Origin: Podargus strigoides
Taxonomy: Eukaryota
DNA: 64,000 nt
Direction of reading: 5' to 3'
Assembly: GCA_028020825.1 (NCBI GenBank)
Contig: CM051622.1
Span: 17,888,261 to 17,952,260 of the forward strand
Each line of letters begins with the position of its first letter. The stretch's first letter is position 1. The notes beneath the pieces were generated by a model. It was not told the origin of the DNA. It ran no database searches and worked only from the letters and a program-made list of their open reading frames with translations. Below, in pieces: positions 24,036 to 26,167 of this stretch. A program made the translations under genes and the position numbers.

Positions 24036-26167
24036 CTGAAATAGTCCCATGGGACAGGGAGCTAGATGGTAAAGGGGCTCAAGATAGTTGGTCAACATTC
24101 AAGGACCACTTCTTGCAAGCTCAGGATCAGAGTGTCCCAATGGGTATGAAATCAAGTAAGGGAGCTAGGAGACCAGCATGGTTAAACAAGGAACTGCTGG
24201 GCAAACTTAGGTGGAAAAAAAGAATTTATGGATCATGGAAAGAGGGGCTGGTCACTTGGGAGGAATATAGGACAGTTGTCAGAGGATGTAGAAAGGCAAT
24301 TAGGAAAGCTAAGGCCTCCTTAGAACTTAACCTTGCAAGCCAGGTCAAGGACAATAGAAAGGGCTTTTTCAAATACATAGCTAATAAAACAAACGCTAGA
24401 GGCAATATAGGCCCACTGATGAATGAGGGGGGTGCTCTAGAGACAGAGGATATAAAGAAGGCAGAGGTGCTGAATGCCTTCTTTGCCTCTGTCTTTACTC
24501 CTGCAGGCTTTCCCCAGGAGCCCCTGATCCCTGTAGCCCCAGAAGAAGTCAGGATGAAGGAGGAGTTTGCCTTGGTAGATGAGGATTGGGTTAGGGATCA
24601 GTTGAGCAATCTGGATATCCATAAATCAATGGGACCAGATGGAATGCACCCAAGGGTGCTGAGGGAGCTGGCAGAGGTCATTGCTAGGCCACTCTCCATC
24701 ATCTTTGGTAAGTCATGGAGAACAGGAGAGGTGCCTGAGGACTGGAGGATAGCAAATGTCACTCCAATCTATAAGAAGGGCAAGAAGGAGGACCCGGGTA
24801 ACTATAGACCGGTCAGCCTCACCTCCATCCCTGGAAAGGTGATGGAACAGCTTGTTCTTGGCACTATCTCTAGGCACATCAAGGATGAGGGGGTCATGAA
24901 GAGTAGTCAACATGGTTTTACTAAGGGTAAGTCATGTTTGACCAACCTTATTGCCTTCTATGAGGAAATAACTAGGTGGATAGATGATGGTAGAGCGGTA
25001 GATGTGGTTTATCTTGACTTCAGTAAAGCATTTGACACTGTCTCCCACAGCATCCTCGTAGATAAGCTGATAAAGTATGGGTTTGGTGATCAGGTAGTGA
25101 GGTGGATTATGAACTGGCTGAAGGGAAGAAGCCAGAGAGTTGTGGTTAATGGGACAGAGTCTAGTTGGAGGCCTGTGACTAGTGGAGTCCCTCAGGGGTC
25201 GGTACTGGGACCAGTGTTGTTTAATATCTTCATCAACGACTTGGATGAGGGTACAGAATGTATCCTCAGCAAGTTTGCTGATGACACCAAACTAGGAGGA
25301 ATGGCTGACACACCAGAGGGTTGTGCTGCCATTCAACGAGACCTTGATAGGCTGGAGAGTTGGGCGGGAAAAAACTTAATGAAATTCAATAAGGGCAAGT
25401 GTAGAGTTTTGCATCTGGGGAAGAACAGCCCCATGTACCAGTACAGGTTGGGGGCTGACCTGCTGGAGAGCAGTGTAGGGGAAAGGGACCTGGGGGTCCT
25501 GGTGGACAGCAGGATGACCATGAGCCAGCAATGTGCCCTTGTGGCCAAGAAGGCCAATGGCATCCTGGGGCGTATTAGAAAGGGAGTGGTTAGTAGGTCA
25601 AGAGAGGTTCTCCTTCCCCTCTATTCTGCCTTGGTGAGGCTGCATCTGGAGTATTGTGTCCAGTTCTGGGCCCCCCAGTTCAAGAAGGACAGGGAACTGC
25701 TTGAGAGAGTCCAGCGTAGAGCCACAAAGATGATTAAGGGAGTGGAACATCTCCCTTATGAGGAAAGGCTGAGGGAGCTGGGTCTCTTTAGCTTGGAGAA
25801 GAGAAGACTGAGGGGTGACCTCATTAATGTTTATAAATATGTAAAGGGTGAGTGTCATGAGGATGGAGCCAGGCTCTTCTCAGTGACATCCAATGATAGG
25901 ACAAGGGGCAATGGGTGTAAGCTGGAACATAGGAGGTTCCACATAAATGTGAGGAGGAATTTCTTCACAGTGAGGGTAACAGAACACTGGAACAGGCTGC
26001 CCAGAGAGGTTGTGGAGTCTCCTTCTCTGGAGACATTCAAAACCCGCCTGGACATGTTCCTGTGTGACCTGACCTAGGTGTTCCTGCTCTGGCAGGGGGA
26101 TTGGACTAGATGATCTTCTGAGGTCCCTTCCAATCCCTAACATTCTGTGATTCTGTGATTCTGTGAA
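24036..26167 (+). mobile_element. CR1 LINE, 5'-truncated, sense relative to PARP4 (in intron 11). It carries an uninterrupted 654-aa ORF2 reverse-transcriptase ORF (24113..26077)
   Basis: RT motifs [13 protein letters not shown] and FADDTKL. The C-terminus ...[30 protein letters not shown]. The 3' tail ccaatccctaacattctgtgattctgtgattctgtg is the CR1 (ATTCTGTG)n terminus. Confidence 0.9.

What the first reader, a model, noticed from the sequence alone, without database searches (positions are those of the whole stretch)
24113..26077. Young CR1 copy with an intact 654-aa reverse-transcriptase ORF in PARP4 intron 11
Most avian CR1 copies are short 3' fragments with decayed ORFs. This 2.1-kb copy, sense to the host gene, keeps an uninterrupted ORF through all RT motifs to the canonical C-terminus and the (ATTCTGTG)3 tail. 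By eye it is highly similar to two other copies in this window (30429-33138 and 42558-43362). That suggests a recently active subfamily. It is 5'-truncated, with no endonuclease domain and no ORF1, so it is not autonomous
Basis: seen in the sequence. Interest (0 to 1): 0.5.

Follow-up and report, generated by a model that had tools for sequence, protein, structure and literature searches.

The report
Truncated CR1 retrotransposon copy, still readable
This is an ordinary "dead-on-arrival" copy of the common bird retrotransposon CR1, sitting in an intron of the PARP4 gene; it probably inserted fairly recently in this bird's lineage, which explains its undamaged reverse-transcriptase reading frame.

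Summary
Window 24044-26166 (+) is a 2.1-kb CR1 copy. It has an unbroken 677-codon frame (listed ORF 24113-26077, 654 aa), intact RT motifs, the canonical ORF2 C-terminus, a 3'UTR hairpin and a perfect (ATTCTGTG)x3 tail. It lies sense-oriented in PARP4, in the intron after the 10th coding exon.

It starts at about residue 255-266 of a 932-939-aa CR1 ORF2. The endonuclease, ORF1 and 5'UTR are therefore missing, and the copy is non-autonomous.

New evidence: seven other neoavian orders (tern, grebe, tropicbird, storm-petrel, rail, king vulture, cuckoo) have a clean empty site at 24043|26165. The insertion is lineage-specific.

Neutral decay would disrupt this frame about 2.3 times per 1% divergence. 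Zero disruptions put post-insertion divergence below about 1.3% (range 0.9-2.0%).

The two "highly similar" copies are 88.6% and 93.5% identical. They form a separate sub-lineage that shares a stop codon and a 5-bp deletion. The A-B differences accumulated under selection (dN/dS 0.23).

No closer relative (above 80% aa) was found, so divergence from a consensus could not be measured. This is a new member of a known kind, of low interest.

The parts
24044..26166 (+). CR1-A: the whole 5'-truncated CR1 insertion (2123 bp). The 5' boundary is uncertain by a few bases because of possible GAAAT microhomology.
   Evidence: Seven other birds align up to 24043 and resume at 26165 with 0-7 bp between. 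Homology to CR1 ORF2 starts at 24044.
24032..26077 (+). Open reading frame including the stop codon: 681 codons open, 677 of them CR1-derived. The ORF listing reports 24113-26077 (654 aa, TTG start). The first ATG is at 24140.
24782..25414 (+). Reverse-transcriptase domain (Pfam RVT_1) with motifs YLDFSKAFD (25010-25036), [10 protein letters not shown] (25184-25213) and FADD (25274-25285).
   Evidence: E=4.6e-32; the closest solved structures are the R2 and LINE-1 ORF2p RTs. One search gives motif positions.
26078..26141 (+). CR1 3'UTR with two predicted hairpins (26083-26096 and 26097-26137). The second has a perfect outer stem, GGGAUUGGA/UCCAAUCCC.
   Evidence: Copies B and C carry a mismatch in that stem. 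The fold is not energetically exceptional (z = -0.96). A conserved hairpin plus octamer is the known CR1 3' structure (PMC4316615; PMC8665684).
26142..26166 (+). Perfect octamer microsatellite, (ATTCTGTG)x3.1. In the frame of St John & Quinn this reads TTCTGTGA x3.
   Evidence: frame definition from PMC2612034
23432..23599 (+). Upstream PARP4 coding exon (10th coding exon). It encodes ...VRILQVYRVGRISETAEFLSTLGNVRSLFHASSVRNFMGILSR, aligned to human PARP4 residues ~404-451.
28244..28350 (+). Downstream PARP4 coding exon (GLLMPKVVVEDHGLERTDIGNLGSGIYFSDSIR). Boundaries are approximate.
26621..27910 (-). Second, antisense CR1 fragment in the same intron. It belongs to a different CR1 family (67% nt to A). 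It is also absent from the tern, grebe, tropicbird, storm-petrel, rail and king vulture; the cuckoo shows the same pattern with less exact boundaries (26584|27923).
30494..33136 (+). CR1-B: the closest long relative of A (88.6% nt). It retains part of the endonuclease region. Its ORF is broken by stops and frameshifts. It is absent from all other birds tested.
42562..43357 (+). CR1-C: a 0.8-kb 3' fragment, 93.5% to A and 96% to B. It shares a TAG stop and a 5-bp deletion with B. It is absent from the king vulture.

Best explanation
Window 24044-26166 is a lineage-specific, 5'-truncated ('dead-on-arrival') insertion of a CR1 LINE. It lies in sense orientation in the PARP4 intron after the 10th coding exon, in an unidentified neoavian bird.

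Mechanism (inferred from established CR1/LINE biology): an RNA from an autonomous CR1 source elsewhere in the genome was reverse-transcribed at a nick in this intron. Priming occurred on its 3' hairpin/octamer end (target-primed reverse transcription). Synthesis stopped about 2.1 kb in, before the endonuclease region. The cDNA was joined with loss of about 4 target bases and no target-site duplication.

The copy has no promoter, ORF1 or endonuclease, so it cannot move by itself and has no demonstrated function. Its reading frame is unbroken because too little time has passed for neutral decay. Estimated post-insertion divergence is about 0-1.3%, and at most about 1.6%.

Shown: identity, truncation point, insertion boundaries, absence in seven other orders. 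Inferred: youth, and the existence of an active source.
For: Identity as CR1:
- Pfam RVT_1, E=4.6e-32.
- 7870 CR1-type RT proteins from birds and turtles hit at E<=1e-20.
- End-to-end alignment to residues ~255/266-932/939 of EN+RT CR1 ORF2 proteins, up to their last residue.
- The solved relatives are the R2 and LINE-1 ORF2p RTs.
- 3' hairpin plus perfect octamer x3. This matches the CR1 3' structure described in PMC4316615 and PMC8665684.

Insertion:
- Phaetusa, Podilymbus, Phaethon, Hydrobates, Atlantisia, Sarcoramphus and Piaya align to 24043 and resume at 26165.
- The junction alignment shows target ...CCTGGAATAACAGAATATCT... with about 4 bp (ACAG) lost and no TSD.

Host gene:
- Human PARP4, E=5e-223; bird PARP4 at 88-89% identity; exon map.

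Youth:
- 3.3-4.3% of substitutions in this ORF create stops. With an assumed 0.05-0.15 indels per substitution (not measured here), that gives 1.5-3.3 disruptions per 1% divergence.
- P(intact) is 0.001-0.05 at 2% divergence and at most 6e-4 at 5%. The 95% upper limit is about 1.3% (0.9-2.0%).
- Outgroup-polarised changes on A's own lineage in the 3' 790 bp number 13 (1.6%). This is an upper bound because it includes pre-insertion changes.
- Only 5 of 297 columns that are >=95% conserved carry A-private amino-acid changes.
- A meets the operational definition of a recent CR1 insertion in PMC2612034: perfect octamers, intact ORF2 and intact 3'UTR.
- Flanking intron differs by about 13% from the nearest available species. 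The insertion therefore falls in roughly the last fifth of this lineage's independent history.
Against: - No subfamily consensus or near-identical sister copy could be obtained. The best external matches are 73-79% aa and at most 83% nt. Divergence from the source was never measured directly.
- All outgroup species belong to other orders, so the empty sites only exclude an ancient insertion.
- CpG observed/expected is very low in A (0.10). This is equally true of all CR1 copies here, so it is uninformative.
- St John & Quinn suggest octamer number grows with age, and one octamer is typical of the youngest copies. A has three.
- Local mosaicism among A, B and C allows some gene conversion. At 4-5 sites in 25918-25984, A and B share derived states against C.
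Confidence: 0.8

Rival explanations
1. It is an old insertion whose reading frame escaped stops and frameshifts by luck.
For: Bird genomes hold on the order of 10^5 CR1 copies, so rare survivors exist somewhere. Divergence from a consensus could not be measured. CpG o/e is only 0.10.
Against: P(intact) is at most 6e-4 at 5% divergence and at most 0.05 at 2%. Total A-lineage derived change in the 3' 790 bp is only 1.6%. The hairpin stem and octamers are perfect. The insertion is absent in seven other orders. About 98% of chicken CR1 copies are under 2 kb (PMC2612034), so few long copies are available to be 'lucky'.
Confidence: 0.05
2. The frame is kept, or was repaired, by gene conversion with other CR1 copies, so its intactness says little about the age of the insertion.
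For: A, B and C lie in the same orientation within 20 kb. Phylogenetic signal is mosaic. B and C group together over most of the 3' region, but at 4-5 sites in 25918-25984 A and B share derived states against C and the outgroups. A-B identity is 97.6% in 25701-26077 versus 85% upstream. Synonymous divergence differs between the 5' and 3' parts (0.45 vs 0.13, p=4e-7).
Against: The neighbouring copies are themselves ORF-defective and so cannot supply an intact frame. The 5' 1.3 kb of A has no similar partner in the window. A mosaic pattern can equally arise in the source lineages before insertion.
Confidence: 0.07
3. The RT frame is maintained by purifying selection after insertion, either as a domesticated RT or as part of an alternative PARP4 transcript.
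For: The copy is sense-oriented inside a transcribed gene. The frame is open for 681 codons with in-frame ATGs at 24140 and 24146.
Against: The insertion is absent in seven other orders, so there is no conserved orthologue to indicate selection. It has no promoter, no endonuclease and no canonical start. Neutral survival over at most about 1.3% divergence explains the frame fully. It sits deep in the intron, more than 400 bp from either exon.
Confidence: 0.03

Closest known systems
Avian CR1 (chicken repeat 1) LINEs, 3'-anchored truncated copies as catalogued by Galbraith et al. 2021 (PMC8665684) and Suh et al. 2014 (PMC4316615)
   Same: ORF2-type RT collinear with CR1 ORF2 to the C-terminus. 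3'UTR hairpin plus ATTCTRTG octamer microsatellite. Heavy 5' truncation. No target-site duplication. Intronic, AT-rich surroundings.
   Different: At 2.1 kb it is longer than about 98% of chicken CR1 copies (PMC2612034), and its frame is still unbroken. The exact family (CR1-Y, -E, -J and so on) could not be assigned because no Repbase/Dfam consensus was available. The best full-length protein match is a kiwi (Apteryx owenii) CR1 at 73%. This hints at the CR1-Y group, since ratite CR1s are nearly all CR1-Y (PMC8665684). That assignment is an inference only.
'Recently inserted' CR1 subfamily I copies of coscoroba (St John & Quinn 2008, PMC2612034)
   Same: It meets their operational criteria for recent insertions: perfect TTCTGTGA octamers, no stop or frameshift in the retained ORF2, an intact 3'UTR, and low-GC flanks (33-35% here).
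   Different: It comes from a different host lineage (a neoavian, not waterfowl). It has three octamers, whereas they regard one octamer as typical of the youngest copies.
'Full-length' and 'intact' CR1 sensu Galbraith et al. 2021 (EN and RT present, in a single ORF, plus the 3' structure)
   Same: The RT domain and 3' structure are present and undamaged.
   Different: The EN domain is absent: about 255-265 N-terminal ORF2 residues are missing. The copy is therefore neither 'full-length' nor 'intact' in that sense, and it is not a candidate active element.
In-window relatives CR1-B (30494-33136) and CR1-C (42562-43357)
   Same: They belong to the same CR1 clade and are the closest sequences found anywhere (88.6% and 93.5% nt). 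They have the same orientation and are also lineage-specific.
   Different: They form a separate sub-lineage with 17 shared derived substitutions, a shared TAG stop, a shared 5-bp deletion and a mismatch in the 3' hairpin stem.

Membership tests
CR1 LINE (non-LTR retrotransposon, CR1 clade) | Non-LTR-type reverse transcriptase domain with catalytic motifs | tested here: met
   Pfam RVT_1, E=4.6e-32. PDB best hits are the R2 and LINE-1 ORF2p RTs. YLDF..D, QG and FADD motifs are present.
CR1 LINE (non-LTR retrotransposon, CR1 clade) | Collinear homology to CR1 ORF2 through to its C-terminus | tested here: met
   A aligns to residues 255-932 of Anas P0120, 266-938 of Natator P0117 and 200-872 of Chelydra P0106, at 63-65% identity. 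It is 73% identical to Apteryx P0046.
CR1 LINE (non-LTR retrotransposon, CR1 clade) | 3'UTR hairpin followed by an octamer microsatellite (ATTCTRTG)n, with no poly(A) tail | tested here: met
   TRF finds ATTCTGTG x3.1 at 100%. A predicted hairpin with a perfect 9-bp outer stem lies at 26097-26137. The feature is described in PMC4316615 and PMC8665684.
CR1 LINE (non-LTR retrotransposon, CR1 clade) | Retrotransposition signature: filled versus precise empty orthologous site | tested here: met
   Seven species show empty sites. The junction has no TSD and about 4 bp of target was lost.
Named avian CR1 family or subfamily (Repbase/Dfam: CR1-Y, -E, -J, -C, -X, -W, -Z) | Best match and low divergence to that family's consensus | not testable with these tools
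   No Repbase/Dfam library was available. The supplements of PMC8665684 held here contain tables only.
Autonomous / 'intact' CR1 (Galbraith et al. 2021) | Endonuclease and RT within a single intact ORF | tested here: not met
   The copy starts at about residue 255-266 of ORF2, so the EN region (PF03372/PF14529 in P0106, P0110 and P0120) is missing.
Autonomous / 'intact' CR1 (Galbraith et al. 2021) | ORF1 and 5'UTR/promoter upstream of ORF2 | tested here: not met
   Sequence upstream of 24044 is orthologous PARP4 intron in seven other birds.
Recently inserted CR1 (operational definition of St John & Quinn 2008) | Perfect octamer repeats, ORF2 without stops or frameshifts, 3'UTR without indels | tested here: met
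   the definition is in PMC2612034.
Recently active subfamily (many near-identical copies in the same genome; insertion absent in close relatives) | Other copies more than 95-98% identical; absence in congeners or polymorphism | not testable with these tools
   Only 64 kb of the host genome is available. The host species is unidentified. The nearest copies are 88.6-93.5% identical. Exact-protein look-ups found nothing.

The most novel reading that the evidence does not exclude
A may represent a still-active CR1 subfamily, not yet described, in a neoavian lineage with unusually high recent CR1 traffic. Five lineage-specific CR1 insertions lie within this one gene. One sub-lineage (B/C) appears to have spread from an ORF-defective source, which would imply trans-mobilisation. 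In that case this copy could be very recent or even polymorphic, and would be useful as a marker.
Probability: 0.12. Interest if true: 0.35.

Novelty: new member of a known kind. Interest (0 to 1): 0.2.

Why it matters
The significance is modest. The copy adds one more case to the known picture that CR1 stayed active in many neoavian lineages (Galbraith et al. 2021). It provides a clean presence/absence marker in PARP4 for the host's clade. The RT sequence probably lies close to that of a recently functional CR1, so it could seed a search for full-length masters in that genome. It does not reveal a new mechanism or a new type of element.

Tried and rejected
1. Searching the 219-aa ORF 54571-55230 to identify the species returned only three unnamed hits at 46-55% identity. 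This was a wasted search.

2. Exact-sequence look-ups of the CR1 ORF, with the TTG start and with the ATG start, found nothing on record.

3. A metagenome scan for close CR1 relatives returned 80 loci, nearly all from one host-rich JGI sample (Ga0065711). All were at most 79% aa and about 80% nt identical, so they were unusable for a subfamily consensus.

4. The 3'UTR pattern has no match in the bacterial/archaeal genome collection or in the viral contigs.

5. CpG depletion as an age proxy was uninformative. All CR1 copies here, and even the flanking introns, have CpG o/e of 0.04-0.21.

6. The conserved-column test against a 54-protein panel was dominated by a different CR1 family. Only deviations private to A were usable.

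7. Using B's lesions to calibrate the decay rate is shaky. B's lesions upstream of 25351 may be inherited from its already defective source, because C does not cover that region.

8. Species identification failed. The best PARP4 matches are 88-89% identical across several orders. Introns are 78-87% identical, with the king vulture highest at 86.9%.

9. The Ara ararauna locus could not be scored for CR1-A because that part of PARP4 is deleted there.

Full report
**1. Observation**

The ORF listing reports an ORF at 24113..26077 (+), 654 aa, with TTG as the first possible start. Translation shows the frame is open from 24032. CR1-like sequence starts at 24044 ("[16 protein letters not shown]..."), and the first in-frame ATGs are at 24140 and 24146.

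Pfam finds one domain, RVT_1 (E=4.6e-32, ORF residues 224-434, window 24782-25414). The catalytic motifs [19 protein letters not shown] and FADD are present.

Tandem Repeats Finder reports ATTCTGTG x3.1 with 100% matches at 26142-26166. Between the stop codon and the tail, the 64-nt 3'UTR folds into two hairpins. The second (26097-26137) has a perfect GGGAUUGGA/UCCAAUCCC outer stem. The fold is not energetically exceptional against shuffles (z=-0.96).

**2. What the element is**

The ORF hits 7870 proteins at E<=1e-20. All are CR1-type reverse transcriptases from birds and turtles. Against full-length CR1 ORF2 proteins that carry endonuclease and RT domains, A aligns end to end with:
- residues 255-932 of an Anas protein;
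- residues 266-938 of a Natator protein;
- residues 200-872 of a Chelydra protein.

In each case the alignment runs to the protein's last residue. The copy therefore lacks about 255-265 N-terminal ORF2 residues (the whole endonuclease), plus ORF1 and the 5'UTR. Among solved structures, the closest are the R2 and human LINE-1 ORF2p RTs.

By the definitions of Galbraith et al. 2021, a "full-length" CR1 has EN and RT, and an "intact" one has both in a single ORF. A is neither. It is a long 3'-anchored truncated copy (PMC8665684). Heavy 5' truncation, "dead on arrival", is the rule for CR1 (PMC4316615). About 98% of chicken copies are under 2 kb (PMC2612034).

**3. Host gene**

Candidate exons on the + strand, joined together, match human PARP4 (PDB 11jf_P) at E=5e-223 over residues 139-766. 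They match partial bird PARP4 proteins at 84-89% identity.

tblastn of the tern and grebe proteins maps these coding exons:
- before CR1-A: 8169, 12118, 12980, 14142, 14781, 15614, 17100, 18631, 20826, 23432-23599;
- after CR1-A: 28244, 28555, 29484, 30192, 34690, 35043, 35615.

CR1-A is therefore in the intron after the 10th coding exon, inside the region encoding the PARP catalytic domain, and in sense orientation. A CpG island at about 2.3-3.1 kb aligns with the annotated start of the macaw gene model. If this is a non-coding exon 1, "intron 11" is correct.

Synteny is CENPJ(-) / PARP4(+) / MPHOSPH8(+).

The host is a neoavian bird that could not be identified. PARP4 is 88-89% identical to several orders, 80% to turkey and 74-79% to palaeognaths. 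Introns are 78-87% identical to the eight species fetched, with the king vulture highest.

**4. Presence/absence, the decisive new evidence**

I fetched the orthologous PARP4 loci of eight species:
- Phaetusa simplex
- Podilymbus podiceps
- Phaethon lepturus
- Hydrobates tethys
- Atlantisia rogersi
- Sarcoramphus papa
- Ara ararauna
- Piaya cayana

In seven of them the intron aligns up to window 24043 and resumes at 26165-26166, with only 0-7 bases between. The storm-petrel resumes at 26197 after a small extra deletion. The macaw has lost this part of the gene and cannot be scored.

The junction alignment gives the pre-insertion target as ...ATAATTTCCTGGAATAACAGAATATCTAG.... In the window about 4 bases (ACAG) are replaced by the element. 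There is no target-site duplication. Short microhomologies are possible at both junctions.

This is a textbook filled/empty configuration.

**5. The "two similar copies"**

blastn finds two related copies and several more distant ones. Empty sites in other birds redefine B as 30494-33136. C is 42562-43357.

- A-B identity is 88.6%: about 85% over 24045-25350 and 91-98% further 3'.
- A-C identity is 93.5%.
- B-C identity is 96.0%.

B and C share a TAT>TAG stop and a 5-bp deletion that A lacks. With about 30 external CR1 copies as outgroups, 17 substitutions are derived on the B/C stem and 13 on A's lineage.

A-B differences are concentrated at third codon positions (51/57/120). dS is 0.33 and dN/dS is 0.23. 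They therefore accumulated under selection in diverging source lineages, not as decay.

A is thus not a member of the same young subfamily as B and C, and their similarity carries no information about A's age. All three are nevertheless lineage-specific and belong to one clade. Nothing closer to them was found in any searchable collection: at most 79% aa and at most 83% nt.

**6. Age of A**

No consensus could be built, so I bounded the age three ways.

(a) ORF survival. In this ORF, 3.3-4.3% of possible substitutions create a stop codon. With 0.05-0.15 indels per substitution, an assumed range that was not measured here, neutral decay gives 1.5-3.3 frame disruptions per 1% divergence.
- P(intact) is 0.001-0.05 at 2% divergence.
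- P(intact) is at most 6e-4 at 5%.
- The 95% upper limit on post-insertion divergence is about 1.3% (0.9-2.0%).

(b) Lineage-derived changes. There are 13 outgroup-polarised derived changes on A's lineage in the 3' 790 bp (1.6%). This is an upper bound because it includes changes made in the source before insertion.

(c) Conserved positions. At 297 amino-acid columns that are >=95% conserved in a 54-protein panel, A has 5 private deviations. B has 11 of 294 and C has 4 of 129.

The flanking intron differs by about 13% from the nearest available species, which is roughly 6-7% per lineage. The insertion therefore falls in about the last fifth of this lineage's independent history.

A also meets the operational definition of a recent CR1 insertion used by St John & Quinn: perfect octamers, no stop or frameshift in ORF2, and an intact 3'UTR. 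Those authors associate a single octamer, not three, with the very youngest copies.

CpG content was uninformative (o/e 0.10 in A, 0.04-0.21 in all CR1 copies and flanks).

**7. Mechanism and rivals**

The best explanation (confidence about 0.8) has four parts:
- target-primed reverse transcription of a CR1 RNA from an autonomous source elsewhere;
- recognition through the 3' hairpin and octamer;
- premature termination after 2.1 kb;
- fixation in an AT-rich intron (33-35% GC in the flanks), with too little elapsed time for the frame to break.

The rivals are:
- chance survival of an old copy (about 0.05), contradicted and by the empty sites;
- gene conversion maintaining or repairing the frame (about 0.07), suggested by the mosaic signal among A, B and C, although the neighbouring copies are themselves defective;
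- post-insertion purifying selection or exaptation (about 0.03), for which there is no positive evidence.

**8. Comparison and novelty**

This is a member of the CR1 LINE clade on every defining feature that a truncated copy can show. It fails the criteria for an autonomous or "intact" element.

Intact and recently active CR1s are already documented in many neoavian orders, including parrots, owls, shorebirds, waterfowl, woodpeckers, hummingbirds, swifts and hoatzin (PMC8665684). A long truncated copy with an unbroken RT frame is therefore expected in such lineages.

Verdict: a real feature, correctly described, and ordinary. It is a new member of a known kind, with interest about 0.2.

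Noticed in passing
window 30494-33136 and 42562-43357: CR1-B and CR1-C have different 5' truncation points and different insertion sites. Yet they share a TAT>TAG stop (aligned to A 25759) and a 5-bp frameshifting deletion (aligned to A ~25796-25800). Either both were copied from an already ORF-defective source mobilised in trans, or gene conversion occurred between the two copies, which lie 9.4 kb apart.
   Followed up: partly
window 24047-26074 versus 31049-33052: Synonymous divergence between A and B is 0.45 in the 5' 1.3 kb but 0.13 in the 3' 0.7 kb (Fisher p=4e-7). 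At 4-5 sites in 25918-25984, A and B share derived states against C. C has a dense cluster of private changes at 25912-25991. CR1 lineages here are mosaic, through recombination, template switching or local conversion.
   Followed up: partly
window 24044-26165, 26621-27910, 30494-33136, 38026-38982, 42562-43357: All five CR1 insertions inside PARP4 are cleanly absent from the king vulture. The first and third are also cleanly absent from the tern, grebe, tropicbird, storm-petrel, rail and cuckoo. The second is cleanly absent from those species except the cuckoo, where the boundaries are less exact. CR1 makes up about 12% of this window, which suggests a host lineage with high CR1 activity since the neoavian radiation.
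   Followed up: yes
L087 (Ara ararauna) and L086 (Sarcoramphus papa) versus window 8000-60000: PARP4 looks decayed in the macaw. Large deletions span window 9085-14021, 22851-28601 and most of 36677-57985, and the NCBI model is 365 aa and flagged 'LOW QUALITY'. The king vulture locus lacks window 19449-22365, 33859-35823 and 45657-60138, including the VIT exons. This could mean lineage-specific loss of vault PARP in some birds, or it could be assembly error.
   Followed up: partly
It lies in sequence that is orthologous intron in other birds, 68 bp before the true CR1 boundary.
   Followed up: yes
window 24383-24388: There is an AATAAA hexamer in sense orientation inside CR1-A, within a PARP4 intron. 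It could in principle act as a premature polyadenylation signal for PARP4 transcripts. This was not tested.
   Followed up: no
window 63206-63772 (+) and 534-1037 (-): The ORF at 63.2 kb contains the MPHOSPH8 chromodomain start (DVFEVEKILDVKTEG) within a GC-rich CpG island. The minus-strand ORF at 0.5-1.0 kb lies in the region that aligns to the macaw locus next to its CENPJ gene model. The window therefore spans the whole PARP4 gene between CENPJ and MPHOSPH8.
   Followed up: partly
window 23432-23599: The PARP4 exon upstream of CR1-A encodes LFHASS where human PARP4 has LLHGS. The catalytic His is kept but the adjacent Gly is Ala. This was not examined further.
   Followed up: no
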